A DNA stretch of 64,000 nt from Planctomycetota bacterium (GTDB taxonomy: Bacteria > Planctomycetota > PLA2 > JAEUHO01), in contig CBDCTJ010000007.1 in assembly GCA_965222115.1 (NCBI GenBank), positions 128,001 to 192,000 of the forward strand, written 5' to 3'. The translations under genes were made by a program, and so were the position numbers. Within the stretch, counting starts at the first letter, position 1. The number at the start of each line of letters is the position of its first letter. Under the pieces are notes generated by a model that saw only the letters and a list, made by a program, of their open reading frames with translations, was not told where the DNA came from and did not search any database. Of this stretch, positions 7,488 through 59,451 are shown in pieces.

Positions 7488-7509
7488 TTCGTGAAGTCTC
7501 ACAACTAAG

Positions 7510-45941: not shown

Positions 45942-46787
45942 CTAGCTGACAGGATCAAACCAGATCTCAATCTCATCCGTCAGCGGTCGATACCCAATCG
46001 CGGGATAAATCTTGTTGGTGGTCTTGTTGGCGAGATCGGTATATAGCGTCGTAAACGACTTTCCGCTATCCAACATTCGCGCGGTAAGCGCTGCCGTCAC
46101 GTTGGACGCATAGCCCCGTCCGCGATGCCTCGGTGGGGTGTACACAAGTGAAACCGAGGCGCCGCGCGGCGTTTTGCGTGACGTCATGGCGGTGCTCACG
46201 GGTTCACCGTCTACGTCCCAGAGAATCATGGCGCCGACACTGAGGGCGCGGTCTACATACGCCTCTACGTTGGTGGGCGCCTCGGACGCAACGTCCACCA
46301 TGAACGCCCGACACCAATCAATCAACAACAGACGGTCGTCAACTGTCGCTGGACGCATCGCGCCGTGAGTCGGCTGTGGTTCGATGACTTTATGACACAC
46401 GTAGATGCGCTGTGCCCGGCCTTCGCGCATGGTCACGGATCGCGAGCCTGACCACAACGCCGCGAACGCACGTGCGCGCGTGAGCTCGCCCTGAACGCCA
46501 GGAACCGCGTCGAGTCGCTCTGCAATGGAATGCGCGAGCGGAGCGATGGCGTCCATGGGGAGATCCGACAACAAGACCTTATGCCCGGGTGTGCGCATGG
46601 TGACGCCAACGATGTCGTCGGCTTCTTGCACGGTGGCGAATACAAACTCTTCGCCCTGGGCCTGTTCGCCCGCAAAACGCCTCGCAAGGCCGAGCAGTAG
46701 ACCATAGCGCTCTTCATCGGCTTCAAGAAACGGTGCAACGTGTCTAAGGAACGACGCGGCATCCTCATGGTGATGGACGGAGATCAT
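45942..46787 (-). CDS. GNAT acetyltransferase
   Basis: VYTPPRHRGRGYAS, LYTDLAN..N.IY..IGY. Confidence 0.9.
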   Translation of the reverse strand: MISVHHHEDAASFLRHVAPFLEADEERYGLLLGLARRFAGEQAQGEEFVFATVQEADDIVGVTMRTPGHKVLLSDLPMDAIAPLAHSIAERLDAVPGVQGELTRARAFAALWSGSRSVTMREGRAQRIYVCHKVIEPQPTHGAMRPATVDDRLLLIDWCRAFMVDVASEAPTNVEAYVDRALSVGAMILWDVDGEPVSTAMTSRKTPRGASVSLVYTPPRHRGRGYASNVTAALTARMLDSGKSFTTLYTDLANKTTNKIYPAIGYRPLTDEIEIWFDPVS

Positions 46788-47491
46788 GCGTAGAGATCGT
46801 GGTGCTTGACCCACGCCATCGAGAATGGCAAGCCGGCCTCGTCACGTCCATTGGGCACTAGGTCGAGCAAGTTGTAGATGCCGAGAATGTTCTCTAGCCC
46901 ACGAGCATAGGCGGAGTACGTGTGGTACACGGCATCGTCTTCACCCTTGGCAAACGCACTAATACCCGGCGCTTCCTCACCCATCGTTGCACGGCCTTGC
47001 TTGTAGTTGTAATAGACCTGCCCGGCGCGAACGTCTTCATCAGCAAACGACACATGGAAGTCCTGATTAAACGTGGTCTTGAGGGATGAAAACCACGGGA
47101 AGGACCACCCCATACGTTTCTTGAACGTCTCAAGCGCATGAACCGGCGCACGAGAAATCGTCACCATGGACACGTCTCGCTGCGCCAAGTGTTGCACAAG
47201 CGGGTTGTAGTGATCGGCACACATCGAACAAATCTTGCACCCCGATGGCCAGTCAGGCGCGAACATGAAGTGGTACACCAGCAACTGCGAATGTTGCCCG
47301 AACAACTCCGAGAGGCGCACATCGCCGCCGGGACCTTGAAACACATAGTCCTCTTCGACTCGCACCCAGGGCAACGCCTGCCGCGCCGCCGTCAGCGCCT
47401 CACGGGCCTTCGAAAACGCCTTCTCCTTGGCCAGCAACTCCTTGCGCGCTTCCGTCCACGCTTCACGGGTCACAACGGTGGGTTGATTCAT
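46784..47491 (-). CDS. DUF899 thioredoxin-like protein
   Basis: ARKELLAKEK, YHFMF, CKICS, YHTYS.YARG. Confidence 0.92.
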   Translation of the reverse strand: MNQPTVVTREAWTEARKELLAKEKAFSKAREALTAARQALPWVRVEEDYVFQGPGGDVRLSELFGQHSQLLVYHFMFAPDWPSGCKICSMCADHYNPLVQHLAQRDVSMVTISRAPVHALETFKKRMGWSFPWFSSLKTTFNQDFHVSFADEDVRAGQVYYNYKQGRATMGEEAPGISAFAKGEDDAVYHTYSAYARGLENILGIYNLLDLVPNGRDEAGLPFSMAWVKHHDLYA

Positions 47492-47616
47492 GGCGGGCCT
47501 TTCGTTGAACGTCCGCCGAGAAATCTACCGCCTCCATTGCGCCGGGCCTGCTTTCGCAGGGACCGCAAAAGAGCAATCCGGCTTGGCGTGTCGCCGTTGA
47601 TGGCATTCGCGAAGCT

Positions 47617-49347
47617 CTAATCACCAAGTCCCATGGATCGAATGAATGGATTGGCCAAGGCCCATCGCGCCTCTGCGCTAGGCAACCACTGCCTGCGGGC
47701 AATGAGCCACTGCTTGTGTCCAAGCCCCAATCGAGCCTTGGCCCGCTCGTTATTCCACGCATACATTTTGCCAGGGTGAATCGCATGATCAATGTCACTG
47801 GCGTGGAGTGCGTCCCACCACGCGTCGTAGAATCTCTGCATACGACTGCAGTTGATTCCATCGACCTCAAAAACGCACGTGATGGGAAATCGTGTACACC
47901 CAGCATAGGCGCTTCCCCCTTTTACGAAGCGCATAGCCATGGCACCCGGAATCGGCCGTTCGTCCGTCAGGGCACGAAGGGCAAGATCCAGAACGGCGAC
48001 GGAATCCTTCGCCGCGACCGCAACAGCGGAGCTCGCAATCTTTCCTTTGGTGTCTGTCGGACCAAAAATGCAGGCAGGCGTGCCAATGCTTGTGTGGTTG
48101 GGCGGGAATCGTTCCTTTAGGAGTCGCGTAATCAGCTCGGGAATCGCGGCGTCCCAAAACTTTCGTTTGACCCAACCTCGGTCCAACGAATCAAACCGGC
48201 ATGTGAGTTCTACAAGGAGATCATTGGCATCTGGAACGTCAGGAAGCAACCCCGCGTTTTCGAGTTTCTTCATTGCCGCCTGAGTACTGAGTGACTGAAG
48301 GCAACCTGCCGCCTCCGCGCCTTGATCGCCTCCCCACGACTTGAGCATACGTGCCAAGGTCCGACTTACTTGAACCAATGGCGTAATGTGATCCTTCGTT
48401 GTGCATGTGGGCGAGGCACCCGATGTGTCCTCGTGCATCAACGTCACAAGTGTCTGATCATCGGCGCCGGGCGCGTAGGGGTTAATTAGAACTTCGAAGT
48501 GATACGGCGTCTTACCTGCATTAGGGTGACTCAATCCGGAGGGTTCACCCGCGCGCATGGCCTGCCTCATTGATTCATCTAACGGTAATGGATGACGGCG
48601 AACGGAAAGCAAGTACGGATCGCGAACTTTGATCATGACCGCCAAAATCACGCCGAATGAACCCAGTGAAACACGTGCGGCGTCGAAGTGGTCGGCCCGT
48701 TTAATGCGTTCAGCGCCTCCCAGCTCTCTCAACAGAGCATCGGTTGCAACCGGTCTATGCTCGGACTCAAGCCACCTTGTCTTGCCCGATCCGGTGGCGA
48801 TGTGAAGCCCCACGACGTAATCCTGCATGGATCCATCGTGAAGCGCCGCGCCATGAACACCGGTTGAGATCGCGCCCGCGATACTCTGACCGTCGCTAGC
48901 CCCTGAAACAACTAGGCTAGCCTTGCGTTTCGGGTCGGCTGCCAAGATCGAATTAATCGTGTTTACGGTTGTGCCGGCACGAAACAAGCGAAGGTGTGGG
49001 TCATGTACACCTACGTTCGTAAGGGGCAACTCGCCCGAGAAATCGTTATCTATTAACTGAATACCCGGCACCGCGGCAACCTTTGAGAACGACCACGTGC
49101 TTCCAATTGTGCGAAACTCAGTTCCCTGGGCAACCGCATCGGCAAGGAATTTCTGGATTCGAGCCGCGCCTACGCGGTGACGCTCGTATGCATCGCCATG
49201 CGCAGCGTCTACGAGCGTGAGCTTCGCCGAGCACACCTGTTTAAACGTTTTACAGTAGTTCCACCAACTTGTAGGACTGTCTGAGTTGCAATCGCTAGAC
49301 TGCGCATTCGGCTTAGATTGCGTATTCGGCTTGTCTTCGACAGTCAT
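47617..49347 (-). CDS. FAD-binding oxidoreductase (VAO/ALO-like)
   Basis: IGSTWSFS, QSIAGAISTGVHG, SLGSFGVI, HPGK. Confidence 0.82.
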   Translation of the reverse strand: MTVEDKPNTQSKPNAQSSDCNSDSPTSWWNYCKTFKQVCSAKLTLVDAAHGDAYERHRVGAARIQKFLADAVAQGTEFRTIGSTWSFSKVAAVPGIQLIDNDFSGELPLTNVGVHDPHLRLFRAGTTVNTINSILAADPKRKASLVVSGASDGQSIAGAISTGVHGAALHDGSMQDYVVGLHIATGSGKTRWLESEHRPVATDALLRELGGAERIKRADHFDAARVSLGSFGVILAVMIKVRDPYLLSVRRHPLPLDESMRQAMRAGEPSGLSHPNAGKTPYHFEVLINPYAPGADDQTLVTLMHEDTSGASPTCTTKDHITPLVQVSRTLARMLKSWGGDQGAEAAGCLQSLSTQAAMKKLENAGLLPDVPDANDLLVELTCRFDSLDRGWVKRKFWDAAIPELITRLLKERFPPNHTSIGTPACIFGPTDTKGKIASSAVAVAAKDSVAVLDLALRALTDERPIPGAMAMRFVKGGSAYAGCTRFPITCVFEVDGINCSRMQRFYDAWWDALHASDIDHAIHPGKMYAWNNERAKARLGLGHKQWLIARRQWLPSAEARWALANPFIRSMGLGD

Positions 49348-49477
49348 TGCGTCCTCCTCTCACCATGCTTGCATTCACGTTAAGGTGTACGCGATGTATC
49401 GAATTTCCACAACCAGAATGCGCACAGTCCGACCAAATTTCGAAGGCTACAGGACCTTGCCGGCCCAAGATGGGGGC

Positions 49478-49840
49478 ATGATGAACTCCGGTAACCGCCC
49501 ATGGACCGACAAGCACTGCGTTCCCGCCAAGACATTGAAAGCGCCCATGGCCGCCGACGCCATTGCAACCGCGCTTGGCGACATTCACGAGGCGTGGCAA
49601 CTCTCAAGCGACGGGACGTGGATCTCGCGTCGTTATAGGTTTCGCAACTACTACGAGACCGTCTCGTTCGTCAACGCGGTGGCCTGGATTGCCCACACCG
49701 AAGATCACCACCCCGATATCGAATTTGGCTATCGCACGTGCACGATTCGCTATACGACGCACGCAGTGGATGGCATTACGGAGAATGACGTCACTTGCGC
49801 CGCAAAGATTGATGCGCTGATAACGCGCGACGAGGGATAA
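49478..49840 (+). CDS. phhB: pterin-4-alpha-carbinolamine dehydratase
   Basis: FRNYYET..FVNAVAWIAH.EDHHPD, TTHAVDGITEND..CAAKID. Confidence 0.9.
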   Translation: MMNSGNRPWTDKHCVPAKTLKAPMAADAIATALGDIHEAWQLSSDGTWISRRYRFRNYYETVSFVNAVAWIAHTEDHHPDIEFGYRTCTIRYTTHAVDGITENDVTCAAKIDALITRDEG

Positions 49841-49845
49841 CCGGA

Positions 49846-51162
49846 TCACGGAGGCGTGGGCTGTGTCGCGGCGTCCAAGTCGAGGCGCCCGTGCCCGAGC
49901 AAACCCTCGTACTCCGGGTTGAGGAACAACATGAACTCGTCGGCGCCCTGCTGTATCGCCTGGACAACTTCTGATTGCCCACCGGGCCCCGAGGCCAGTT
50001 CCAACTCGCGCACGAGGGCATAGCACCCGGTAACAATCGCCGCGCTAAAGGACGTTCCCGACCACTTGCACGCTTTATCGTCTTCGACCGGGTAAGCACC
50101 GAGTAGCTCAAAGCCCGGCGCTGCTACGTCTACGCTCTCGCCATAGCTAGCAAAATCGCACTTGATGTCGCCTGGATCACCGGACGTGACCGACAGCGCA
50201 ATGCCGATTGTTGCGGGAAACGTAATTTCCTGATTGCCGGTGTTGCCCGCCGACGCGATCACAAGCACGGCATTGTCACGCGCATAGGCAATCGCTTGGC
50301 CAACAACGTAGGCTTGGTGCTCCATGCCGAGCGAGAGATTGATCACGTCTACACCGGCATCGGTCGCGCGCGTAATGGCTTCGGCCACGTGACTTGTGAG
50401 CCCCACATTGTCTGAGTTGAGAACGCGATAGGGAAGAATCTGCGCATTGGGCGCTAGGGCGAGAATCAAGCTGCTGACGAATGTGCCGTGGCCAAATCCC
50501 TCGTCGATGTATCCATCGTTGTCGTCGTCTACACCATTCATGACGTCGCTGGGATCGTCGTCATCGTCCACAAAGTCCCAACCGCCGGGCTCAATCTTTC
50601 CCTGCATGGCCACATGCGTCATCACCACGCCGGAGTCAATTACGGCCACGCGCACACCTGCGCCCGTTGCTCGCGAGCGCGCCTCCATGGCACCGATGCG
50701 AAGCAGTTCGGGTTGATCTTGAACGACCGCAAAGTCAAACAACTCCTCTCCGGCCGGTAACGTGGCGCCACCACCTTCCGGTGCCGACACAATGCGATCC
50801 AATTCACGATCCAAAACTCGGGTATCGCCTTCGATCTGATCGATGAAATCGTTTGCGGTGTCACTATCAGGAAATTCAACGACGAAGAAGTTGGTCTTGG
50901 GCACTTCTTTGATGGCCGTACTGCCGGTGCCATCGGCAATCTCCGTAACATCTTCGCCCGCCGCAGGCCGCACCAGCACGCGTGTGGGCTCTACGTTGGT
51001 ATCAAATGCACCGCCCCCGGTCGTGGGTTGAGGGTTGTTGCCACCGCCGCAAGCACCGAGGGTCATGCTCATCGCCAGCACACCCATGGCCAGCACACCC
51101 ATGGACACTGTCGTACCAGCGAACCAAAGCTTGCCCATCCGAACCAGTCGCACCGGGTTCAT
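49846..51162 (-). CDS. S8 subtilisin-like serine protease, lipoprotein
   Basis: LGA-C lipobox; VIDSG, GHGT, ASAGN, SGTSF triad; DDDNDGYIDE Ca-binding loop; ATGA overlap with the CHAT gene. Confidence 0.92.
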   Translation of the reverse strand: MNPVRLVRMGKLWFAGTTVSMGVLAMGVLAMSMTLGACGGGNNPQPTTGGGAFDTNVEPTRVLVRPAAGEDVTEIADGTGSTAIKEVPKTNFFVVEFPDSDTANDFIDQIEGDTRVLDRELDRIVSAPEGGGATLPAGEELFDFAVVQDQPELLRIGAMEARSRATGAGVRVAVIDSGVVMTHVAMQGKIEPGGWDFVDDDDDPSDVMNGVDDDNDGYIDEGFGHGTFVSSLILALAPNAQILPYRVLNSDNVGLTSHVAEAITRATDAGVDVINLSLGMEHQAYVVGQAIAYARDNAVLVIASAGNTGNQEITFPATIGIALSVTSGDPGDIKCDFASYGESVDVAAPGFELLGAYPVEDDKACKWSGTSFSAAIVTGCYALVRELELASGPGGQSEVVQAIQQGADEFMLFLNPEYEGLLGHGRLDLDAATQPTPP

Positions 51163-53957
51163 GGCATTCCTCCAGACAAGCGAAACGGCAATAGCCGCGC
51201 CGCCGTACGTTGATCATCCGCAACCATCGATAGTGCGTGCCCAAACGCACCCGGCACGTCCATTGTACCGGGCTCTGCATCGTCAAATTGTGCCGTACCC
51301 AGGCGGGCATAAAGCGCGGCCATAAGATCGGCGGTACTTTCATCATCGACGTCGCCCGAAGTCCACAGCACCCATCGAACGCCCGCTCGCAATAGTGTTC
51401 TCGGAAGCGCCCCCCAAGCCTCGGCCGCTGGCCCTGGCGGTGCGCCGGTTTGACAAGCCGCCAGACAAACGAGTTGTGTCGAGAGCCGCGCGGGCACATC
51501 GGCCGATGTAAGCCACCCATCGTGCAAGCGCACACCACCTAACGCGGGCGCGTCGGTTGATGCAACACCGTGCATAGCAAAGTGAACTGCATCTCGCTCG
51601 CCCAGCGCGCGAACGGCGGCGTCGAGCGTGGCGCCACGACCGGTGAACACATCACCATAGGCTCGCAGTGCGCGCGCTTCACGACGCGCCCCGTCGAGCC
51701 CCGCTTCACCCGCCACAATCGCCGCCAGACCACGGCCCACCTTGGTACGCGTTGAACGGGTGCGCGTTGAACGGCGCGGCAATCGCAGCGCTGGAACGCG
51801 GGCAACCGCTCGCGACGCCGCGAGGAGTCGGCCACCCACAGGCAGTAGTTCCCACGGCAAATCACCGAGCCGTTCATCGAGCACAAAGTAAAGATCTGCA
51901 CGAGGCGTGTCATGTCCCAGCGCTTCACGCCGCACGATCGGTGCGATCAATGAATCGCCAAGACGTGTCATTGCTCGCGCAAACGCACGCGCACCGGACG
52001 CCGAATCGGATACGCGTACGCGGTGGGCGTGAAACCGGAGCTCGCGTGCCGCTTTGTGGAGCGCGGGAAGCGAAATCAACGTGCCTACATCGACGATTTC
52101 GTGCTGCGTGCGCGTGAGGCAGCGCACGTCGTGACCTTGAACCCACACGTGAACATAGGTCTGATTGCCGACGGGATTACGAGTTGGCGCGTCGGTCGTA
52201 TGCGCGTGCGCGGGGCGCTTACGACGGCGTTCGTCCCGTCGCCACGATTCGGCAACAGCTTGCTCGACGGCACGAATTTCATCGATGAGTGCCATGCGTT
52301 GCGCAGGATTGAGACTGCGCGTGGATCCGCCTTGATCGGCCAGGGCGTCGTAGAGCACCGCAAGGCGTTTGCGTAATGCCGCCATGCGACCCGTTCCTGT
52401 ACGTGGCGACTTACCCGCCATAAAGCGCTTTAGCGCAAGGCCGTCAAGGATGCGCTCCGCCTCCTCACGGTCCGGTGTACGTCCGCGCTGCAACAGGGCA
52501 TCGATCAACAGCAGGTACGGATCCAGTTGCTCCAGCAAGAACTTGGTTCGGAGCCAAGGCCCCGGCAAGTCGCCACGCATGCTTTCGATTCGTGCCGTGA
52601 GCGTTCGCAGACGACGAATGGCGCGTGCGCGTTCGCCGTCCGAGAGTTCCAAACGGGCGCGCGCGGTTTCAGCGGCCACGGCGATCCATGGGTGCCCGGC
52701 CGATGCGCGTGGCAAATCGCTGAGCAGTGCGCGTGCCCGCGCGAGCTGTTGGATTTCAATCGCCACCACGATGCGCAACAGTTGCGTACGCCACACAACT
52801 TCCGATACGCCCGCCGTCTTCGCTCGCCGCCACAAGCGCGCCAAGCGACTGGCGTCGGGCAACGTTCCACTGAGCATATGAAGCTGTTCAAGCATCAGCA
52901 TGCCGCGGAGCACATACTCGGTACGCCCGAGTTCGGTGGCATCGTGAATCGCGCGCTCGAGTTGCGTTCGCGCGCGCTCAAGATCGGTATGAACGAGGCT
53001 TGCGCCTACGAGCCAGCGCGTTTCCACACTTTCCACCCGAGCATCAATGCGCTCAAATGTCTTGAGCGCTGCGCGAGCCTGCTTGACGGCGGAACCGTTG
53101 TCGCCCACGCGCCGCAACGCATCGGCCAAGTCCATCCGACACAAGGCTTCAAGACGCGCACGACCGTGTGACTTCGCGTCGGCAGCAATTTGCTCCAACG
53201 CGACGATGCCCGTGCCCGGTTCGCCCGCACGCACGCGCAGGCATGCCATGTTGTATTGCGCATGAAGTTTGCGAACCGCTTGCCCCGCGTCGCCGAACGT
53301 CTCTTCGGCATGCTCGAATCGTCGTTTCGCGCGCTGAAGGTGACCGGCATACATGAGCGCCACACCCGCATTCATCTTTGCAAGTGCCGCGGATGGCTCT
53401 TGGCCCAGGCGTCGAAATGCGCGCGCGGCCTTATCGCTTTCGTCGGCGGCTTCCTCCAAACGTCCAGCAAGTCGAAGCACGTTGGCGCGATTTGTGCGAA
53501 GAATGGCCCGATACAACGGTGCGCGTTTGCCTCGAATGCGAGACGCAGCGCGCGCGGCACAACGAAGCGCTTCGTCAATTTCGCCGGCCTGCCCCAGCGC
53601 GTCCACCGCCAACAACAGGGACTGCATCGCATGATCATGCTCGCCGTGGGCCGTGAGATCGACCTCGGCTTCCAACATGAGTTTCGATGCGTCGCTAAGC
53701 GAACCGCAGTGACGCAGTGCCATGCCACGCATCAATCGAAGACGGGCAACACCCAATGCATCGTGATTGCGTCGTGAGGCGACTTCCAGCGCATGCACGG
53801 CGCGCTCGCCCTGCTGCGGTTCACGTAACAAGATCTCACTAAAACGCTTGCGCAGTTCGGGCCACGGTACACCACGCTCTACAATTGCGCGCGCGAGCGA
53901 AGCGCGGTCAGCGGCGCTCGCTTTGAGGAGTCGATCGATTGTGGACACCGCCGTCAT
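51159..53957 (-). CDS. TPR plus CHAT (caspase-HetF) protease
   Basis: TPR array; LPWELL, HFAMHG (His), LAACQTG (Cys), VDDEST..LM..LY; ATGA overlap with the upstream gene. Confidence 0.9.
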   Translation of the reverse strand: MTAVSTIDRLLKASAADRASLARAIVERGVPWPELRKRFSEILLREPQQGERAVHALEVASRRNHDALGVARLRLMRGMALRHCGSLSDASKLMLEAEVDLTAHGEHDHAMQSLLLAVDALGQAGEIDEALRCAARAASRIRGKRAPLYRAILRTNRANVLRLAGRLEEAADESDKAARAFRRLGQEPSAALAKMNAGVALMYAGHLQRAKRRFEHAEETFGDAGQAVRKLHAQYNMACLRVRAGEPGTGIVALEQIAADAKSHGRARLEALCRMDLADALRRVGDNGSAVKQARAALKTFERIDARVESVETRWLVGASLVHTDLERARTQLERAIHDATELGRTEYVLRGMLMLEQLHMLSGTLPDASRLARLWRRAKTAGVSEVVWRTQLLRIVVAIEIQQLARARALLSDLPRASAGHPWIAVAAETARARLELSDGERARAIRRLRTLTARIESMRGDLPGPWLRTKFLLEQLDPYLLLIDALLQRGRTPDREEAERILDGLALKRFMAGKSPRTGTGRMAALRKRLAVLYDALADQGGSTRSLNPAQRMALIDEIRAVEQAVAESWRRDERRRKRPAHAHTTDAPTRNPVGNQTYVHVWVQGHDVRCLTRTQHEIVDVGTLISLPALHKAARELRFHAHRVRVSDSASGARAFARAMTRLGDSLIAPIVRREALGHDTPRADLYFVLDERLGDLPWELLPVGGRLLAASRAVARVPALRLPRRSTRTRSTRTKVGRGLAAIVAGEAGLDGARREARALRAYGDVFTGRGATLDAAVRALGERDAVHFAMHGVASTDAPALGGVRLHDGWLTSADVPARLSTQLVCLAACQTGAPPGPAAEAWGALPRTLLRAGVRWVLWTSGDVDDESTADLMAALYARLGTAQFDDAEPGTMDVPGAFGHALSMVADDQRTAARLLPFRLSGGMP

Positions 53958-54565
53958 CCGGAATGAATCTCCAGCGGCGGCGTGCGCCAGGCTTCGCCAA
54001 GCTCGTCGACAACTGCGATCACCAAGGGCTCGTTGGCATCAAGTTCTATCGGTACACTTCCGGTTCCCTCATCGTCTAGCTCAACGTCGATCACTTGAGG
54101 GCCATGAAGGACACGCACCGTTTGAGTAAGTCGCTCACCTAAACTCTGTTCGCTTTCGACTTGTTCACTTTCACGTACGTCGAGGGCAAGTACGAGCGTT
54201 ACGCGGTTGCTTGACGAAGCTTCTTGAACAGCATCCGGTGTGACTTCAACATCGAGCGATCCAAGCGCGTGCTCGAAACGAAAGAGGCGTGCTAGTCCCG
54301 TGCTGCGCGCCGCGGGCGCTAGCGAACCCCACGAATCGAACACGAGTCGCGCCACCGTCTCGAAGATGCTCTCCGGTTGTTGCGCGAAGATGGCTTGGGC
54401 TTTGCGCTTGGCGCGCGAAGGGCACCGTTCATCGTTGTCGTGAGCCGCCATCAGTTCGTGGGCCAGTCCTTCTTCGATTGACAAGTCCGCACGCGCGCGT
54501 CCCGATGCGCTATGCGCCAGGAAGGCAGCGAGCAGTGAATCGATGTTGAGGTTCGGCACGATCAA
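53954..54565 (-). CDS. putative anti-sigma/adaptor protein of the ECF-CHAT-S8 module
   Basis: Lies between the ECF and CHAT genes; ARLVFDSW motif then a beta-rich domain; no TM. Confidence 0.65.
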   Translation of the reverse strand: MIVPNLNIDSLLAAFLAHSASGRARADLSIEEGLAHELMAAHDNDERCPSRAKRKAQAIFAQQPESIFETVARLVFDSWGSLAPAARSTGLARLFRFEHALGSLDVEVTPDAVQEASSSNRVTLVLALDVRESEQVESEQSLGERLTQTVRVLHGPQVIDVELDDEGTGSVPIELDANEPLVIAVVDELGEAWRTPPLEIHSG

Positions 54566-54642
54566 ACACCCTTACAACGCACGACGAAGTCCTTGGATTC
54601 GTCGCCCTTGCCTCAATTGCCTGCCGTGCCTTGCCCATGACG

Positions 54643-54671
54643 GGTTAGACCGACTGGCTGGTTAGACCGAC
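54643..54671. repeat. direct repeat GGTTAGACCGAC x2
   Basis: Copies at 54643-54654 and 54660-54671 in the ECF/anti-sigma intergenic gap. Confidence 0.8.
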
Positions 54672-54691
54672 CGGAGCGGGCGGGTAGCAAC

Positions 54692-55486
54692 TTAGCGCGT
54701 GGAACGAACGGACTTCATCGTGCTAGAGGCGTCTCCGCGACCGCCTGATACATTTCGCCCGGATTTTCGATCCTGGACATCTTGCTTTGAAACAGTGAGT
54801 CTTGATGCAGGATCGAGTCTTGATGCGGGCTCGTCGAAGGGGAAGTTGAGCGCCGCCAACTCCCCCACCATTTTCTCAAGGCAGCGCTTGCGGGTGGGTC
54901 CGATCGAGCCGACCGGCATACCTAACTCCACGCTGAGCGCGCGGTAGTCCTGACTCTCCCTCAAGAAGAGAGCCTCAAGGATACGCCTACACTTTGAGGC
55001 CAACGCGCGCATGGCGCGATGCACCAAATGATGCCGTTCTTCCTGCACCAAGAGGTCTTCTGGAAGCGGCGATGGGCGCCGAAGCGTGTTCTCGCTCGCC
55101 TGTTCGTCGCGTTCGCGGACCGTGCGAATGCGACGTGCTACGCGCCATGATTCACGCCGTGCCGTCATTGCGATCCACCCGCGAACGCGTTCACCGTCTC
55201 GGAGTCGCCGAAGATTTCGAAACAGACGCAGGAACACGTCTTGCACAACGTCTTCTGCCGATGCGCCATCTAGACCTGAGCGCCGTGCAATAGCATGAAT
55301 GAGATCGGCATAGCGCTCGACCAGAGCGTCCCACGCCCCTTGCTCGCGCCCTAAACAACGACGAACCAGCTCGGCATCGTCATGGCGCACGCTGGATGGA
55401 CGATCGCCAATCTTGCTGCGATTCGATTCTCTGCGCTTCGCCTTGCTGCGATTCGAGTGATAGCCGTTGGATGCAGGTGACGTCAT
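54692..55486 (-). CDS. ECF sigma factor
   Basis: DDAELVRRC...AW..LV.RY, AEDVVQDVF, GWI.MTARR, LGMPVGSIGPTRKRCLEK. Confidence 0.92.
   Translation of the reverse strand: MTSPASNGYHSNRSKAKRRESNRSKIGDRPSSVRHDDAELVRRCLGREQGAWDALVERYADLIHAIARRSGLDGASAEDVVQDVFLRLFRNLRRLRDGERVRGWIAMTARRESWRVARRIRTVRERDEQASENTLRRPSPLPEDLLVQEERHHLVHRAMRALASKCRRILEALFLRESQDYRALSVELGMPVGSIGPTRKRCLEKMVGELAALNFPFDEPASRLDPASRLTVSKQDVQDRKSGRNVSGGRGDASSTMKSVRSTR
54724..54752 (-). promoter_or_regulatory. candidate ECF promoter TGTATCAG-N15-CCTCTA
   Basis: In the 3' end of the sigma gene, pointing at the anti-sigma-CHAT-S8 genes; motif shared with 55647-55674. Confidence 0.6.
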
Positions 55487-55646
55487 TGCTCTCTCTTCTA
55501 TAGCGCCATTTGCACGCCTGTGGGACAGGGATTTCCAATTCATACGACGCAAACTGATACACGGCACCTCGGTCGAGGTTTCGAATCGAGAGCAACGGCC
55601 GGGAAGGCGAACCCGCGCCGAAATCGACTGCCCGCGTCACGCGCGA

Positions 55647-55674
55647 TGTATCAGTGCGCGGCGAGCGGCCTCTA
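55647..55674 (+). promoter_or_regulatory. candidate ECF promoter TGTATCAG-N14-CCTCTA
   Basis: Ends 37 bp before the ATG at 55711; motif shared with 54724-54752. Confidence 0.65.
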
Positions 55675-55710
55675 TGCAAGTGGCCAATGGTGGCCCAGGA
55701 GGTCTCCCTG

Positions 55711-57036
55711 ATGAGACAAATCACACGATGGGTCACCCTCTTGCTGCCCACCGCACTGTTGATCGGTTGCGGCGGTGGCGGTGGTGGTGCCCCCAGCGGG
55801 TTGGACGTACTGAATCAATCGGCCAGCCTCGAAGGCGTTGTACTGGATGTGGACGGCGAGTCCGCGCAAGCCGGTGGCGTAGCGTTCACAGTGGAAGAGA
55901 CGGGCGAACAGGCGCTAACAGGCGTTGACGGCGCGTTCTACTTTGACGAACTGCCAGAAGGCGAAGTCAATCTTGTGCTCGATACCGCCAATTCGCTGGC
56001 CCTAAAACCCGATTTGAGCGATGCGTCGGATGATCTCGACGATGCAGATGACGAAAAGGATGAAGAAGAGGCCGACGACGATGACTCGAGTGATGACGAA
56101 GACGAAGCGGCAGACGACAGCGAGCGCGACGATCGTCGCATTCGCATTCGTCGCGTGCGTCGCGGCGAAGTCATCATTATCTACATTCGTATTGTGAATC
56201 GTCGCATTGTTGACATTCGCATCGTTCGCCCCGCGGATGACGACGGCGACGGTTGTGAAATCCATGAGCGCGAACTCGAACTCGAGATGCGCCGCACCGA
56301 TGCCAACACCGATCCCGACATGGAAGGCGAAGTGGAACTCTCCATTGAGTCCAACTGCGATCAGGAGTTTGAAGTCGAAGTTGAAGATGCCACCGTCGGT
56401 GACATTCTCGAGGCCGTCGTCATCAATCCCGAAGACGAAGAAGAGTCATTGGGCTTCCGCGTCGTAGAACTCGATGGCGACGCCGAATGGAAGATCGACA
56501 CCGGCGACGGACAAGCCCTGCCGTTCGGTAAAACACGTATCACTGGGCTCGGTCGGCACCGGGTTGTGGTTCGAGATGCCGAAGGCGTGGATCTCCTGCG
56601 CACGCGCATTCCTCCCTTTGGTGACGGCGATCCCAACTGCTTCTTCCTCTACGGCCGCAATCGCTTGATTCCGCAGGTCGATGACGTTGCCGGTTGGGTT
56701 GGCATCGCCGCCCGCGGGTGCGTACCCAACGATCGCGACCGTCTTGTGCAGCAGCTCTTCCGGGTGTATGGCGAAGGCCTTATCCCTGGGCGCGCCTACA
56801 ACATCTTCCTGGAAGATCCGGATGATCCCGGCACGTTGGTGGAGATTCGTTCGATGACCGCCAATCGCGATGGCGAAGTGGACTTGGCCTACAACACGGC
56901 TGAAGGTGACCGACTTCCGCTTGGCGCAGGCACCATTCGCGTGCTTGTGGGCAAGGAAGTCCAGATTCGCGCCGCGGCCACCGATCGCGTCATCCTGCGC
57001 GGCAAGGTCCCCATGCTCATGGGTGGTGATAGCTAA
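55711..57036 (+). CDS. acidic lipoprotein with carboxypeptidase-regulatory-like N-domain and two repeated beta domains
   Basis: AGGAGG RBS, LIG-C lipobox plus poly-Gly; Asp/Glu tract; internal repeat GQALPFG / GDRLPLG. Confidence 0.82.
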   Translation: MRQITRWVTLLLPTALLIGCGGGGGGAPSGLDVLNQSASLEGVVLDVDGESAQAGGVAFTVEETGEQALTGVDGAFYFDELPEGEVNLVLDTANSLALKPDLSDASDDLDDADDEKDEEEADDDDSSDDEDEAADDSERDDRRIRIRRVRRGEVIIIYIRIVNRRIVDIRIVRPADDDGDGCEIHERELELEMRRTDANTDPDMEGEVELSIESNCDQEFEVEVEDATVGDILEAVVINPEDEEESLGFRVVELDGDAEWKIDTGDGQALPFGKTRITGLGRHRVVVRDAEGVDLLRTRIPPFGDGDPNCFFLYGRNRLIPQVDDVAGWVGIAARGCVPNDRDRLVQQLFRVYGEGLIPGRAYNIFLEDPDDPGTLVEIRSMTANRDGEVDLAYNTAEGDRLPLGAGTIRVLVGKEVQIRAAATDRVILRGKVPMLMGGDS

Positions 57037-57066
57037 CTCGCACTCGGCTACTTCCCCATGAACCCC

Positions 57067-57105
57067 TGCACACCGACACACCTCGTGTCGGTGTGCATCT
57101 TTTTT
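57067..57105 (+). terminator. intrinsic terminator
   Basis: 13-bp perfect stem TGCACACCGACAC/GTGTCGGTGTGCA, 5-nt loop, then T6. Confidence 0.88.
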
Positions 57106-57106
57106 G

Positions 57107-58529
57107 GAGTCTCCTGCTCTTCATGTGGGTCATGGCAACTTCGGATGGAGTTCGATGCCGCCGTTGCACAGGAACAACATAGAGATCAGCGCCTTGGCGC
57201 TGTGAAATCCGTATGCTCGTCGAGCCACCATGCGGAGCCGATTGTTGATGCCTTCCACGATGCCGTTGGTCATGCGGCAACTGATGTAGGCGATGATGCC
57301 ATCGAAGTGCTCCCGAAGCGTTTTGGCCAATCGCACGAACTGTTTGAGTTTGGATCGCGACGCCCAAGCCAGCCACTCACGAAGGGCGCGCCGAGCTCGC
57401 TTCGGTTGAAGGTAATCCAGTGCCGCACCAAGCGACTCCTTTAGGAGATAAGCGCGATACAGCTTCTTGTTCGTCCGCTCGATCTCGCTGAGCTTGGTCC
57501 GCTGCTTCGAATCGAGGTCACAGTAGTTCTTTAGGATTGCGTAACGCGAGTAGAAAATGAACCGACCTTGATCAGTGCCTCGAAGTTCTCGTAGCTGTTC
57601 GCGGCGTACTTCATCGAGTGCCACGCCTGCTAGCTTCTGGATGTGAAAGCGATCGAATACAACTTGGGCTTGAGGGATGTGTGTCGCAATGGCTTTGCGG
57701 TTCCATCCCGCCAGATCCGTCGTTACACCTTCGATCTTGGCAGCGTCCTCCGGCGATATCTCTTCGAAAAACTTGCGTAGCGTCGCTGAATCCTTCCCTT
57801 CGGCTGCCCACACCACGCGGCGACGATCGTGATCGACAACCAACGTAATGAAGTTGTGTCCGCGAAGATGGCTGAACTCATCCATGCCAATCCAGCGCAG
57901 ATTCGAGAGTCGGTCGGGATCCTGGCGTTTCGCGACGACACGCGTGACGATGGAACCAACCGTTCGCCACGTCACGCCCATTTGGACTGAGACCTGCGTC
58001 TTGTCCGTCGTTCGAACTAAGTACGCCACCATTTCCTCGAAATCCTTTGTGAATCGGCTCTGAGCCTCAGCCCACGGCACTTGCTCGGCTCGCACGCCGC
58101 AACGGGAGCAGTTCACGCGACGCGGTGAGTATCTGAACCACACTCGCGTAGAACCGATCCCCAGGTGGCGCCAAAACCTAGATCTCAGCCGATCGTAGCC
58201 CGGGGCCCTTTCCCCACACCCACTGCAACGAGGCAGGCGATGGCGCGGAGACACCGTGGCGATCACGCCACGCAGCGAAAAATCTACCGATCGGACGTAC
58301 ATCCCCGGGACATCGATCATCCGATGCAATAACGTGGTGGCGCGCATGGGGCTCCTCTGTTGATTTGTCGATTTCGTAACCAACAAAGAAACATGAGTCC
58401 CGTGGGCACCTCTAGGTTGTGACAGCCTGTTCTAACAAACATCATTTCTTTTCCTGCCGTCCGCGCCCTCTTAGGGGCGGCAGGACAAGAAATCGCAAAT
58501 GTACGACCCACACAAAGAGCAGTAGAGCC
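57107..58529 (-). mobile_element. complete ISL3-family insertion sequence
   Basis: Imperfect 25-bp IRs (GAGTCTCCTGCTCTTCATGTGGGTC / GGCTCTACTGCTCTTTGTGTGGGTC); 8-bp TSD CTTTTTTG at 57099-57106 and 58530-58537. Confidence 0.92.
57130..58347 (-). CDS. ISL3 transposase
   Basis: Zn ribbon CSGC/CSRC, IGMDE, TTDL, DRFH, TNGIVEGINN..RRAYGF. Confidence 0.93.
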   Translation of the reverse strand: MRATTLLHRMIDVPGMYVRSVDFSLRGVIATVSPRHRLPRCSGCGERAPGYDRLRSRFWRHLGIGSTRVWFRYSPRRVNCSRCGVRAEQVPWAEAQSRFTKDFEEMVAYLVRTTDKTQVSVQMGVTWRTVGSIVTRVVAKRQDPDRLSNLRWIGMDEFSHLRGHNFITLVVDHDRRRVVWAAEGKDSATLRKFFEEISPEDAAKIEGVTTDLAGWNRKAIATHIPQAQVVFDRFHIQKLAGVALDEVRREQLRELRGTDQGRFIFYSRYAILKNYCDLDSKQRTKLSEIERTNKKLYRAYLLKESLGAALDYLQPKRARRALREWLAWASRSKLKQFVRLAKTLREHFDGIIAYISCRMTNGIVEGINNRLRMVARRAYGFHSAKALISMLFLCNGGIELHPKLP

Positions 58530-58608
58530 CTTTTTTGGCTCGACGTTGATCCGACGCGAAGCGCCCGGCGCCATACGCTGGTAGCGTGACGCGTGTCGGA
58601 GAGCACGC

Positions 58609-59451
58609 ATGACCGATGTCCTTATCTTCGGCCGCGGCTGGATGGGCCACCAGCTTGCGGATCGAACCCCACAGTCCAAGCTCGTTGCCACGGACATCGC
58701 CGATGAAACGGCGGTGGCGAGCGTCCTCGATGCATACCGCCCAAACCGCGTGATTAACTGCGCAGGCAAGGCAGGCCGCCCGACCGTAGACAGTTGCGAA
58801 GACGATCCCGATGCCACCTACCGATCCAATGTGGTGGGTCCTATTGTGCTCGCGAGCGCATGCAGGCAGCGCGACATTCACTTCACACATTTGGGAAGCG
58901 GCTGTGTGTACGAGGGCGACAACGGCGGTCAGGGATACGCCGAGTCCGATCCGCCCAACTTCTTTGGAAGCCTTTATTCGCGCACGAAGATCCTTTCGGA
59001 AGCTGCGCTGCGCGATGTGGGCGCGCTACAACTTCGTATCCGCATGCCCATTTCGAGTACGCCGCATCCACGCAACCTGCTCACCAAACTCCTGGGCTAT
59101 CGCCACATCGTGAGCGTGCCCAACTCGGTGACCATTCTCGACGACTTCTGGGACGTTGCGACCGAGCTCATGACGCGTCGTGAAACCGGTGTCTGGAACG
59201 TTGTCAGTGATGGCGTGGAGTTGCATGAGACGCTGCTGACGCTGTATCGCGAAACTGTGAATCCGGAACACCGCTTTGAACTTGTGTCCGAACACACGCT
59301 TTCGGAGAGGCTCCGGGCGCGGCGCTCCAACTGTGTACTCAGCACGGCCAAACTACGCGCAGCAGGACTGGCCATGCCCTCGGTCGATGAACGGCTTCCG
59401 CAAATCGTTCGCGCCTATGGCAAACACGTTCAGCCTACTCAAGCCCGCTGA
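58609..59451 (+). CDS. NRS/ER-like nucleotide-rhamnose 3,5-epimerase/4-reductase (RmlD substrate-binding family)
   Basis: [52 protein letters not shown] match plant/viral NRS/ER motifs. Confidence 0.8.

What the first reader, a model, noticed from the sequence alone, without database searches (positions are those of the whole stretch)
49846..55486. ECF sigma / soluble anti-sigma-like / TPR-CHAT protease / S8 lipoprotein: candidate protease-gated signalling system
Seen: four co-oriented genes, the last three ATGA-coupled; the CHAT His-Cys dyad and S8 Asp-His-Ser triad are intact. Established: in type III-E CRISPR the TPR-CHAT Csx29 cleaves Csx30 to free an ECF-like sigma. No CRISPR genes are present here. 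Inference: a CRISPR-independent circuit in which the TPR senses a trigger, CHAT cleaves the 203-aa protein, and the sigma induces itself-linked genes and surface proteins. Similar gene clusters may already be catalogued, but I know of no worked-out mechanism.
Basis: partly seen in the sequence, partly recalled or inferred. Interest (0 to 1): 0.8.

Follow-up and report, generated by a model that had tools for sequence, protein, structure and literature searches.

The report
Sigma factor switch with caspase-like protease
A self-contained five-gene bacterial module pairs an alternative sigma factor with a predicted soluble inhibitor and a separase/craspase-like protease, and it appears to switch on two cell-surface lipoproteins; the gene cluster type is already catalogued, but its mechanism is untested.

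Summary
Four minus-strand genes lie at 49846-55486: an ECF sigma, a 201/203-aa protein, a TPR-CHAT protein and an S8 lipoprotein. Both ATGA overlaps are present and the catalytic residues are intact.

A divergent lipoprotein gene (55711-57036) belongs to it. Two GTATCAG-N15/16-CTCTA promoter-like sites sit before the small-protein operon and before the lipoprotein gene. Both recur at the same places in a Planctomycetota MAG locus that shares only these five genes.

The cluster type is already catalogued as the neighbourhood of ECF group ECF54 (Actinobacteria), with the same predicted promoter. That group has no assigned anti-sigma and no experiment.

New here:
- The small protein belongs to a family unknown to Pfam (32 representatives).
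- It is predicted to clamp sigma regions 2 and 4 (ipSAE 0.80, best control 0.00).
- A Chloroflexota member carries an HxxxCxxC motif.
- The family's most conserved motif lies in a flexible linker outside the predicted sigma interface.

The TPR-CHAT model resembles Csx29, separase and DdvA, but it is cytoplasmic and unfused.

Cleavage of the small protein by CHAT is inferred, not shown. I rate this a new variant of a known kind, of moderate to high interest.

The parts
54692..55486 (-). ECF-type sigma factor, 264 aa. It has a roughly 30-aa N-terminal extension and a roughly 57-aa C-terminal tail that do not align with the L001 orthologue.
   Evidence: Sigma70_r2 3.9e-13; TIGR02937 74.4 bits against a cut-off of 42.9. 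Matches PDB ECF sigmas at 4e-8. 58% identical to the L001 sigma over residues 29-207.
53954..54565 (-). Predicted soluble anti-sigma, 203 aa from TTG 54565 and more likely 201 aa from GTG 54559. Four N-terminal helices, a flexible conserved linker, and a C-terminal 8-strand beta-sandwich.
   Evidence: No Pfam or NCBIfam match. Family of 32 representatives at E<=1e-3. AF2 model pLDDT 80.4. Predicted complex with the sigma: ipSAE 0.80, best control 0.00.
54305..54340 (-). Codons for F76-R87 (FDSWGSLAPAAR). This is the family's most conserved motif. It lies at the end of helix 4 and in the low-confidence linker, outside the predicted sigma interface. Candidate CHAT recognition or cleavage site (inference).
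   Evidence: D77 and S78 are invariant and R87 nearly invariant in 33 sequences. pLDDT is below 50 at residues 81-86. Interface residues listed are 6-16, 37-70, 101 and 189-192 only. The motif is kept in the L002 member although its N-terminus differs.
51159..53957 (-). Cytoplasmic TPR-CHAT cysteine protease, 932 aa. TPR-like solenoid about residues 3-578; CHAT domain about 599-929; His796/Cys835 dyad.
   Evidence: CHAT 6.4e-28. H796 and C835 invariant in 18 of 18. AF2 pLDDT 84.6, pTM 0.80. Foldseek: Csx29 6e-13, separase about 1e-12, DdvA 3e-9. No TM-like segment.
49846..51162 (-). S8 subtilase lipoprotein, 438 aa. Signal peptide ends in LGAC; D176/H225/S371 triad.
   Evidence: Peptidase_S8 3.6e-38. 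Best NCBIfam match is mycosin TIGR03921, 141.9 bits, below its cut-off of 278.75. Triad invariant in 4 of 4. 51% identical to the L001 S8.
55711..57036 (+). Divergently transcribed lipoprotein, 441 aa, lipobox LLIGC, 22.9% Asp+Glu. Weak CarboxypepD_reg-like N-terminal domain, a polyacidic run, then an Arg/Ile-rich segment. Fifth member of the module.
   Evidence: 50% identical to the divergent gene of L001. The start and a GGAGG ribosome-binding site were read. Pfam CarbopepD_reg_2 gives E 0.013 here and 6.3e-5 for the L001 orthologue. Composition.
54724..54751 (-). Promoter-like site GTATCAG-N16-CTCTA, inside the 3' tail of the sigma gene and upstream of the small-protein/CHAT/S8 operon.
   Evidence: The same motif sits at the same place in L001 (7909, + strand). 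In the window the bipartite pattern occurs 2 times against 0.035 expected (200 shuffles, maximum 1).
55648..55674 (+). Promoter-like site GTATCAG-N15-CTCTA, 37 bp upstream of the lipoprotein ATG.
   Evidence: The same motif sits upstream of the L001 lipoprotein gene (7254, - strand).
55554..55560 (-). Lone GTATCAG 68 bp upstream of the sigma ATG, with no CTCT at the -10 distance. Function unclear.
57067..57097 (+). Intrinsic-terminator-like hairpin (13 pairs plus a T-run) closing the lipoprotein transcription unit.

Best explanation
This is a free-standing, ECF54-type sigma module in a probable planctomycete.

**Resting state.** The ECF sigma is held by the soluble 201-aa protein. The protein's four N-terminal helices are predicted to sit between sigma regions 2 and 4.

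**Trigger (inferred).** The translationally coupled cytoplasmic TPR-CHAT protein has the separase/Csx29/DdvA architecture and an intact His-Cys dyad. It is the proposed gate. An unknown cytoplasmic cue, read by its ~580-residue TPR solenoid, activates it. It then cuts the anti-sigma in the conserved flexible linker (FDSW-x3-APAxR) between the sigma-binding helices and the beta-sandwich. The remnant would then be lost, as happens with RseA or Csx30.

**Output (predicted).** Free sigma transcribes from GTATCAG-N15/16-CTCTA promoters. One drives the anti-sigma/CHAT/S8 operon, which gives feedback and a secreted S8 lipoprotein. The other drives a divergent, very acidic lipoprotein. The output is therefore envelope-directed.

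**Status of each step.**
- Shown by computation: gene order, domains, catalytic residues, co-conservation, and promoter-motif conservation.
- Predicted: binding of the sigma by the small protein.
- Inferred: the cleavage, the trigger, and the biological role of the two lipoproteins.
For: **1. Co-conservation.**
- L001 (Planctomycetota MAG) has the same five genes in the same order, at 39-58% identity. Nothing else of the window's flanks is shared apart from one weak DUF899-like match.
- L002 (Chloroflexota) reads CHAT, S8, sigma, family member, TPR protein, and is cut by the contig end.
- L005 (Nonomuraea, Actinomycetota) has TPR-CHAT, S8, sigma and a family member with HMM E 2e-6.
- Seven contig lengths are shared between the lists of CHAT and sigma homologues.

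**2. Anti-sigma role.**
- Complex prediction gave ipSAE 0.80, 0.80 and 0.68; the best of 3 controls was 0.00. The mark was reached by 116 of 157 solved complexes and 2 of 215 mismatched pairs. These counts hold only roughly because my own alignments were used.
- The runs share at least 71% of contacts, and the partner's pLDDT is at least 75.
- The interface joins sigma residues 44-104 and 151-207 to partner residues 6-16 and 37-70.
- The L002 member has ADHVGACVPC, an HxxxCxxC motif.

**3. Link between anti-sigma domains and TPR-CHAT.**
- The small gene and the CHAT gene overlap by ATGA.
- Fused forms exist: DdvA, and P0054 with zf-HC2, a TM segment, TPR and CHAT.
- Csx29 cleaves the sigma inhibitor Csx30.
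- The CHAT model's best PDB match is Csx29, at 6e-13.

**4. Free conserved motif.** The family's invariant motif lies outside the predicted sigma interface, in a low-pLDDT linker.

**5. Promoters.** The bipartite motif occurs 2 times against 0.035 expected in the window. It sits at orthologous positions in L001 and before the S8-sigma operon of L005. It equals the published ECF54 prediction of GTATCAG / CTCC.
Against:
- The sigma/anti-sigma pass may partly reflect likeness to solved sigma/anti-sigma complexes, so it does not show that this copy binds.
- The small protein has no detectable sequence or fold similarity to known anti-sigma domains. The PDB profile search gave a best E of 0.059, to a designed Ig domain. 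Foldseek gave 0 matches at E<=0.001. Pfam hits zf-HC2 or CarboxypepD_reg in 0 of 33 family members.
- Because CHAT and S8 lie behind a sigma-type promoter, they could be outputs only.
- L002 shows no GTATCAG motif.
- Genomic context is known for only 3 relatives.
- The CHAT and S8 proteins of L005 are too diverged to match the window's by tblastn at 1e-3.
Confidence: 0.45

Rival explanations
1. **CHAT and S8 are outputs, not the gate.** The small protein is an ordinary soluble anti-sigma. It would be inactivated by some other cue, such as redox chemistry at a zinc/thiol site or general proteolysis by Clp or Lon. The sigma then induces the TPR-CHAT protease, the S8 lipoprotein and the acidic lipoprotein as effectors.
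For: - The conserved sigma-type promoter lies directly upstream of the anti-sigma/CHAT/S8 operon and of the lipoprotein gene, so all of them are predicted regulon members.
- The L002 member carries HxxxCxxC.
- In L005 and L002 the CHAT gene is not adjacent to the small gene: it is divergent or upstream.
Against: - The window family has lost the HxxxCxxC motif and keeps only C48.
- The invariant linker motif outside the predicted sigma interface needs a partner.
- Fusions of anti-sigma domains to TPR-CHAT and the Csx29-Csx30 precedent point to a regulatory role for CHAT.
Confidence: 0.3
2. **The proteases act on the sigma itself.** CHAT would degrade or process the sigma, for example its N- or C-terminal extension, keeping the system off or maturing it. 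The ECF review proposes this for ECF54, which lacks an assigned anti-sigma.
For: - The review states that proteolytic control of the sigma was proposed for ECF54 because carboxypeptidase-like, subtilase and CHAT proteins are conserved nearby.
- The window sigma has unaligned N- and C-terminal extensions.
Against: - The extensions are not conserved in L001.
- A predicted anti-sigma is present, which removes the premise of the proposal.
- S8 is an exported lipoprotein and cannot meet a cytoplasmic sigma.
Confidence: 0.1
3. **A phage-defence or abortive-infection module.** The TPR solenoid recognises a phage protein, and CHAT cleaves host targets or the anti-sigma to launch an envelope-directed defence. 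This parallels DdvA/DdvS and Craspase.
For: - Both characterised relatives at fold level, Csx29 and DdvA, act in defence.
- The module sits in different genomic contexts in the window and in L001.
- It lies next to an ISL3 transposase.
Against: - PADLOC gives no match for the sigma, small protein, CHAT protein or lipoprotein. It gives only a generic subtilase model for S8, at 3.3e-17.
- The neighbouring genes are housekeeping-type: pterin dehydratase, FAD enzyme, sugar-nucleotide enzymes.
- No CRISPR, CBASS or other defence genes were seen in the 64-kb window.
Confidence: 0.12

Closest known systems
ECF54 group of ECF sigma factors and its conserved neighbourhood (Huang et al. 2015, as described in the supplement of Casas-Pastor et al. 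2021, PMC7826278)
   Same: - A sigma with a small beta-sandwich protein at +1, TPR and CHAT proteins, and a subtilase.
- Predicted promoter of -35 GTATCAG and -10 CTCC; here GTATCAG-N15/16-CTCT.
- No experimentally studied member.
- The actinobacterial locus L005 has the published arrangement (CHAT at -2, S8 at -1, small protein at +1). Its +1 protein matches the window's small-protein family.
   Different: - ECF54 is described as 100% Actinobacteria and as lacking an anti-sigma. This copy and its closest relatives are from Planctomycetota-type MAGs.
- The gene order is sigma, small protein, CHAT, S8.
- A divergent lipoprotein gene is part of the unit.
- The +1 protein is here predicted to be the anti-sigma.
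- Placement of this sigma in the ECF54 clade could not be tested.
Type III-E CRISPR Craspase: Cas7-11 with the TPR-CHAT protein Csx29, Csx30, Csx31 and CASP-sigma (PMC10028731)
   Same: - A TPR-CHAT protease of the same overall fold; it is the best PDB match, 8eey_B at 6e-13.
- It is encoded with an ECF-like sigma and a soluble sigma-binding inhibitor. Cleavage of that inhibitor relieves inhibition (passages read).
   Different: - No Cas7-11, CRISPR array or Csx31 is present here.
- The small protein has no detectable similarity to Csx30: the PDB profile search found nothing of that kind.
- The activating signal cannot be guide-RNA/target pairing.
DdvA/DdvS of Myxococcus xanthus (PMC11506125)
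   Same: - An ECF sigma controlled by a protein system that combines an anti-sigma domain with a TPR-CHAT module. Foldseek to 8rw5 gives 3e-9 with TMq 0.40.
- CHAT-mediated proteolysis is proposed, not shown, as the releasing step.
   Different: - DdvA is one polypeptide: an N-terminal zinc anti-sigma domain, a TM helix, and a periplasmic TPR-CHAT.
- Here the two parts are separate, soluble and cytoplasmic.
- No RseP-type step is implied.
- The output here is two lipoproteins, not CBASS/CRISPR genes.
Classical protease-gated sigma-E/RseA (DegS, RseP, ClpXP). Recalled; also cited.
   Same: [quoted passage not shown]
   Different: RseA is membrane-spanning, and the site-1 protease is periplasmic. 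Here the S8 protease is extracytoplasmic but the anti-sigma is soluble, so S8 cannot be the site-1 protease.

Membership tests
ECF (group IV) sigma-70 factors | Regions 2 and 4 only; matches the ECF superfamily model above its cut-off. | tested here: met
   TIGR02937 scores 74.4 bits against a cut-off of 42.9, covering model positions 2-162 of 165. Sigma70_r2 3.9e-13. PDB ECF sigmas match at 4e-8.
ECF54 group | Conserved neighbourhood: a small beta-sandwich (CarboxypepD_reg-like) protein at +1, TPR/CHAT protein(s), and a subtilase. | tested here: met
   Window order is sigma, small protein (beta-sandwich C-terminus), TPR-CHAT, S8. The description was read. Caveat: Pfam CarboxypepD_reg hits 0 of 33 family members.
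ECF54 group | Predicted target promoter: -35 GTATCAG, -10 CTCC. | tested here: met
   GTATCAG-N15/16-CTCT(A) occurs twice at the module against 0.035 expected. The sites are conserved in L001, and one is present in L005. The -10 differs by one base.
ECF54 group | Placement in the ECF54 clade or HMM of the ECF Hub classification. | not testable with these tools
   No ECF group models are available. The nearest named relatives are Planctomycetota and Phycisphaerales MAG proteins. One Acidothermaceae (Actinomycetota) sigma is 42% identical.
ECF54 group | Taxonomic range: Actinobacteria (100% of members in the 2021 classification). | tested here: not met
   The closest loci and named homologues are Planctomycetota. 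The window also carries a PF07638-type ECF sigma plus kinase pair.
Class I anti-sigma factors (anti-sigma domain, ASD) | Encoded next to the sigma; an N-terminal helical bundle that binds both sigma region 2 and region 4. | tested here: inconclusive
   Adjacent gene. The AF2 model has four N-terminal helices. The predicted complex contacts region 2 (residues 44-104) and region 4 (151-207) with ipSAE 0.80 against 0.00 for controls. This is a prediction only, and solved sigma/anti-sigma complexes may bias it.
Zinc-binding anti-sigma factors (ZAS, zf-HC2) | HxxxCxxC motif (definition recalled) or a Pfam zf-HC2 match. | tested here: not met
   The window protein has H42-x5-C48 only. No zf-HC2 hit in 33 of 33 members. 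The L002 member does show HVGACVPC, but it too gets no Pfam hit.
Type III-E Craspase system | The TPR-CHAT protein is associated with Cas7-11/gRAMP and a CRISPR array, with Csx30 as substrate. | tested here: not met
   No array. No cas families among the 51 ORFs scanned. The small-protein profile finds no Csx30 chain in the PDB. Only the TPR-CHAT fold is shared.
DdvA-type anti-sigma | A single chain: N-terminal zinc anti-sigma domain, TM helix, periplasmic TPR-CHAT. | tested here: not met
   The CHAT protein has no anti-sigma domain and no TM-like segment. The fused type does exist among distant homologues, such as P0054.
CHAT / clan CD cysteine proteases | CHAT domain with the catalytic His-Cys dyad. 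| tested here: met
   PF12770 6.4e-28. H796 and C835 are invariant in 18 of 18. Activity not tested.
S8 subtilases | Asp-His-Ser triad with the oxyanion Asn. | tested here: met
   PF00082 3.6e-38. D176, H225, N307 and S371 are invariant in 4 of 4. It is not a mycosin equivalog: 141.9 bits against a cut-off of 278.75.
Catalogued anti-phage defence systems (PADLOC 2.0) | A match to a system-specific model. | tested here: not met
   Only a generic subtilase model matches S8, at 3.3e-17. The other four proteins match nothing.

The most novel reading that the evidence does not exclude
This is a CRISPR-independent, fully cytoplasmic separase/craspase-like switch. A free-standing TPR-CHAT sensor-protease cuts a previously unrecognised family of soluble anti-sigma factors at an invariant FDSW-APAxR linker, and this releases an ECF54-type sigma. 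The same split module would underlie the whole ECF54 group, which is listed as having no anti-sigma. It would span Actinomycetota, Chloroflexota and Planctomycetota. It would also represent the unfused form of what is fused in DdvA and has been recruited by type III-E CRISPR.
Probability: 0.3. Interest if true: 0.75.

Novelty: new variant of a known kind. Interest (0 to 1): 0.6.

Why it matters
ECF54 is one of the 16 ECF groups that the 2021 classification lists as not linked to any of its known regulator types. No member has been studied experimentally.

If the small protein is the missing anti-sigma and TPR-CHAT is its protease, one stroke assigns a mechanism to a whole sigma group. It would also show that CHAT-gated release of a sigma factor is a general bacterial signalling design. 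At present it looks like a speciality of type III-E CRISPR (Csx29/Csx30) or of DdvA in Myxococcus.

The module is compact. It has five genes, two short defined promoters and soluble parts, so it can be tested directly in a heterologous host. A TPR-gated, site-specific protease coupled to an orthogonal sigma and promoter would also be a useful synthetic-biology part.

Tried and rejected
**Searches that led nowhere.**
- Sequence and fold searches for the small protein. The PDB profile search gave a best E of 0.059, to a designed Ig domain. Foldseek against the PDB gave 0 matches at E<=0.001, only generic beta-sandwiches. The ESM Atlas returned only unnamed clusters, with recognition below the reliable range. 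Pfam on all 33 family members gave no zf-HC2 or CarboxypepD_reg hit.
- The Atlas search for the lipoprotein gave scores below 0.8 and was uninformative.
The 6-sequence alignment used the only genome scan and returned 2 loci from 361 pattern matches. A broad neighbourhood survey was therefore not possible.

**Plasmid-collection searches.**
- The small protein found no match.
- CHAT found 2 weak partial matches, neither in a sigma cluster.
- The sigma found 4 records at 30-38% identity, and I examined all four. Only the best, Nonomuraea L005, has the full set. Miltoncostaea L007 has a sigma, S8 and GAF. Streptomyces L006 and L008 have none.
- The L005 small protein found only itself.

**Ideas rejected or left open.**
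- S8 as the site-1 protease of the anti-sigma is rejected on topology. S8 is a lipoprotein, and the anti-sigma has no signal peptide or TM segment.
- Sigma autoregulation from the GTATCAG at 55560 is unsupported, because no CTCT lies at the -10 distance.
- L002 has no GTATCAG-type site. A GTATCCA with a 19-nt spacer did not convince.
- No sigma-70-like promoter was found in 49200-57300.

**Literature limits.**
- Huang et al. 2015 is not held, so ECF54 is known to me only through the Casas-Pastor supplement and the 2022 review.
- That supplement was cut when stored, so later ECF groups with CHAT in their context could have been missed.
Full report
**1. The observation**

Four genes lie head to tail on the minus strand:
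- a sigma gene, 54692-55486 (264 aa);
- a small gene, 53954-54565 (203 aa from TTG). The start is more likely GTG 54559 (201 aa), because the database copy and the nearest homologue start there;
- a 932-aa gene, 51159-53957;
- a 438-aa gene, 49846-51162.

ATGA stop/start overlaps join the second to the third gene and the third to the fourth. A 126-bp gap separates the sigma gene from the small gene.

Family assignments come:
- The first protein is an ECF sigma: Sigma70_r2 3.9e-13, and TIGR02937 at 74.4 bits against a cut-off of 42.9.
- The third protein has a CHAT domain (6.4e-28, residues 662-888) behind weak TPR matches.
- The fourth protein is an S8 peptidase (3.6e-38). Its best NCBIfam match is mycosin, well below that model's cut-off.
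- The small protein matches nothing.

The catalytic residues are intact. CHAT H796 and C835 are invariant in 18 of 18 orthologues. S8 D176, H225, N307 and S371 are invariant in 4 of 4 aligned S8 proteins.

S8 begins with a hydrophobic signal ending in LGAC. The sigma, small protein and CHAT protein have no TM-like segment.

The window has no CRISPR-like array. No cas family appears among the 51 ORFs I scanned.

**2.

*A fifth gene.* A gene at 55711-57036 (+) is transcribed divergently from the sigma gene. It has an ATG preceded by GGAGG and a lipobox, LLIGC. It encodes a 441-aa lipoprotein with 22.9% Asp+Glu, a weak CarboxypepD_reg-like N-terminal domain and a polyacidic run. A strong terminator-like hairpin follows at 57067-57097.

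*Promoter-like sites.* The heptamer GTATCAG occurs 9 times in the window against 3.8 expected, and three copies lie at this locus. Two of these have CTCTA 15 or 16 nt downstream:
- 54751-54724 (-), inside the 3' tail of the sigma gene and upstream of the small gene;
- 55648-55674 (+), 37 bp before the lipoprotein ATG.

The bipartite pattern GTATCAG-N15/16-CTCT occurs twice in the window. Two hundred shuffles gave 0.035 on average and never more than 1. The third GTATCAG, 68 bp upstream of the sigma ATG, has no such -10.

**3. Relatives**

*The small-protein family.*
- The word-indexed search of 5.8 billion proteins found only one homologue (55% identity).
- An exhaustive HMMER search of 1.84 billion cluster representatives found 32 proteins at E<=1e-3, nine of them at E<=1e-10. 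All are 176-201 aa long.
- The 33-sequence alignment has invariant P49, D77, S78 and R93, and nearly invariant C48, R55, R87, R96 and D105. These form the motifs CPxxxxRR, LVFDSW, APAxRG and RxLRF.

*The genome scan.* Only a 6-sequence alignment was accepted for the single genome scan. It gave 2 loci from 361 pattern matches.

*L001, a Planctomycetota MAG.*
- It has the same five genes in the same arrangement: divergent lipoprotein, sigma, small protein, TPR-CHAT, S8.
- Identities to the window are 50, 58, 39, 50 and 51%.
- No other window gene from 42343 to 61462 is shared, apart from one weak DUF899-like match. The five genes therefore form a unit in an otherwise different context.
- Both promoter-like sites recur at the same places: GTATCAG-N16-CTCTAG in the sigma 3' tail, and GTATCAG-N15-CTCTAG before the lipoprotein gene. 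The sigma tails do not align as protein, so coding constraint does not explain this.

*L002, a Chloroflexota MAG.*
- The contig reads CHAT (5' cut), S8, sigma, family member, TPR protein (3' cut).
- In the correct frame (4232-4867), the family member keeps IVFDSWGSLAP...RG...R.
- Its N-terminus is different and contains ADHVGACVPC, an HxxxCxxC motif. By my recollection this motif is the hallmark of zinc-binding anti-sigma domains. Pfam gives no hit for this protein.

*L005, the Nonomuraea gerenzanensis record.* A tblastn of the sigma against the plasmid collection found four records at 30-38% identity. The best is an 11.85-Mb, unannotated Nonomuraea gerenzanensis record.
- It carries a divergent TPR-CHAT, then S8, sigma and a 153-aa protein that matches the family HMM at E 2e-6.
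- GTATCAG-N14/16-CTCT lies 70 bp before the S8 gene.
- A one-mismatch copy lies before a neighbouring haem-peroxidase gene.

*The other three records.* One has a sigma, S8 and GAF only. Two have only a sigma.

*Contig lengths.* Seven contig lengths are shared between the CHAT-homologue and sigma-homologue lists. One of them (345,381 bp) also holds the small-protein homologue.

All three related loci whose context I could see, from three phyla, combine the four gene types.

**4. Comparison with what is catalogued**

I read passages of the supplement of Casas-Pastor et al. 2021. It describes ECF54 as follows:
- The group is 100% Actinobacteria.
- A carboxypeptidase-regulatory-like domain protein is always at +1.
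- A subtilase is at +2 or -1, CHAT at +3 or -2, and TPR proteins at +2 or -2.
- The predicted promoter is GTATCAG (-35) and CTCC (-10).
- No putative anti-sigma is assigned.

A 2022 review (passages) says that proteolytic control of the sigma itself was proposed for ECF54 on this basis.

Searches for 'ECF54', 'ECF54' with 'CHAT' and 'CHAT domain' with 'ECF' and 'Planctomycetes' (0 papers) found no experimental work.

The window's module therefore matches a catalogued neighbourhood and its predicted promoter, but it lies outside the stated taxon range. L005 shows the published arrangement, and its +1 protein belongs to the window's small-protein family. I could not test whether the window's sigma falls in the ECF54 clade.

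Two limits apply. The original paper (Huang et al. 2015) is not held. The supplement file was cut when stored.

**5. The small protein as an anti-sigma**

AlphaFold2 with the family alignment gives a mean pLDDT of 80.4. The model has:
- four helices (8-17, 30-43, 50-61, 67-81);
- a low-confidence linker (pLDDT below 50 at residues 81-86);
- an eight-strand beta-sandwich (93-194).

Complex prediction was run on sigma residues 30-215 (43-row alignment) with the small protein (33-row alignment).
- ipSAE was 0.80, 0.80 and 0.68. The best of three controls was 0.00.
- The mark was reached by 116 of 157 solved complexes and 2 of 215 mismatched pairs. These counts hold only roughly because my own alignments were used.
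- The runs share at least 71% of contacts, and the partner's pLDDT is at least 75.
- The interface joins sigma region 2 (residues 44-104) and region 4 (151-207) to partner residues 6-16 and 37-70. This is the clamp geometry of class I anti-sigma domains.

Sigma/anti-sigma complexes have been solved, so the pass may partly reflect likeness. It supports binding but does not show it.

The HxxxCxxC motif of the L002 member is independent support. Against this reading, no sequence or fold search links the protein to known anti-sigma domains.

**6. The TPR-CHAT protein**

The AlphaFold2 model (pLDDT 84.6, pTM 0.80) is a long helical-repeat solenoid (residues 3-578) followed by the CHAT fold (599-929).

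Foldseek against the PDB ranks:
- Csx29 of the type III-E Craspase first (8eey_B, 6e-13);
- separases at about 1e-12;
- the anti-sigma DdvA at 3e-9 (TMq 0.40).

The global TM-scores are low (0.26-0.40), so this is a likeness of architecture. Sequence search of the PDB found nothing at E<=0.1.

The precedents are as follows:
- DdvA fuses a zinc anti-sigma domain, a TM helix and a periplasmic TPR-CHAT. [quoted passage not shown]
- A distant homologue of the window's CHAT protein, P0054, has the same fused, membrane-spanning design.
- In type III-E systems, Csx29 cleaves Csx30, whose N-terminal domain binds and inhibits an ECF-like sigma.

**7. Mechanism**

I propose the following sequence:
1. 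The soluble anti-sigma holds the sigma.
2. The cytoplasmic TPR-CHAT protease is activated by an unknown ligand or protein bound by its solenoid.
3. It cuts the anti-sigma in the conserved linker.
4. The freed sigma transcribes the anti-sigma/CHAT/S8 operon and the acidic lipoprotein gene from GTATCAG-N15/16-CTCTA promoters.
5. The result is an envelope-directed output, with anti-sigma feedback.

The strongest indirect argument for the cleavage step is the linker motif, F76-R87, with D77 and S78 invariant and R87 nearly invariant.
- It is the family's most conserved motif.
- It lies outside the predicted sigma interface, in a flexible linker.
- It is retained in the Chloroflexota member, whose sigma-binding end is of a different type.

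Something other than the sigma must therefore read this motif, and the conserved cytoplasmic partner is CHAT. This is inference.

The main rival is that CHAT and S8 are simply regulon outputs. The promoter position fits this equally well, and so does the non-adjacent placement of CHAT in L002 and L005.

S8 cannot act on the anti-sigma, for reasons of topology. A defence role is possible by analogy, but PADLOC matches only a generic subtilase model and the neighbouring genes are housekeeping-type.

**8. Verdict**

- The finding is real.
- The cluster type and its promoter were already catalogued as ECF54, without a mechanism.
- New here: the extension to Planctomycetota and Chloroflexota, the fifth gene, the two conserved promoter sites, the identification of the +1 protein family as a predicted soluble anti-sigma with a conserved free linker motif, and the structural tie to Csx29 and DdvA.

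I rate it a new variant of a known kind, with interest 0.6.

Noticed in passing
window 3277-6728 (-): An ECF sigma of the PF07638 type (204 aa, 3e-25) overlaps by 4 bp a 946-aa Ser/Thr protein kinase that has weak STAND-NTPase-like matches. This is an ECF-plus-kinase pair of the kind described for planctomycetes.
   Followed up: no
window 11573-14122 (-) and 14604-16844 (+): Two divergently oriented long proteins (849 and 746 aa). Each has an N-terminal 170 residues made of sigma-70 regions 2 and 4. The 600-700-aa C-terminal extensions have no Pfam match. These look like ECF sigmas with large fused regulatory extensions.
   Followed up: no
window 57130-58386 (-): A complete-looking ISL3 transposase (DDE_Tnp_ISL3 9.8e-69) lies immediately beyond the terminator of the lipoprotein gene, at the edge of the module.
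   Followed up: no
window 51070-51104 and 55412-55456: Short in-frame tandem duplications of 15-bp units. One lies inside the S8 signal peptide (MGVLAMGVLAM). The other lies in the N-terminal extension of the sigma (the SNRSK motif repeated).
   Followed up: no
window 55711-57036 (+), residues about 100-190: The lipoprotein has a ~50-residue run that is almost pure Asp/Glu/Ser/Ala. An Arg/Ile-rich alternating segment follows directly (RRIRIRRVRRGEVIIIYIRIVNRRIVDIRIVR). The arrangement is conserved in the L001 orthologue and is unexplained.
   Followed up: partly
L005 4670-7502 (-): In the Nonomuraea record the TPR part (5559-7502) and the CHAT part (4670-6484) are two overlapping ORFs in different frames of the same strand. 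This could be a frameshift, a sequencing error, or over-extended ORFs in GC-rich DNA.
   Followed up: no
L005 about 4663 (-): GTATCAA-N15-CTCT lies about 50 bp upstream of a gene with an animal-haem-peroxidase domain (2847-4595, -). This suggests that the actinobacterial sigma has a different extra target.
   Followed up: no
L002 3030-3160: The S8-sigma intergenic region holds two near-identical copies of a GC-rich hairpin-forming element (...CCCTCCCC...GCGGCGGGAGAGGGGCTT...). This was seen by eye; it may be a terminator or a REP-like repeat.
   Followed up: no
window 34214-36471 (+): A NapC/NirT-type cytochrome is followed by a cytochrome c552 (7.3e-122), which looks like a NrfHA-like nitrite reductase pair.
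   Followed up: no
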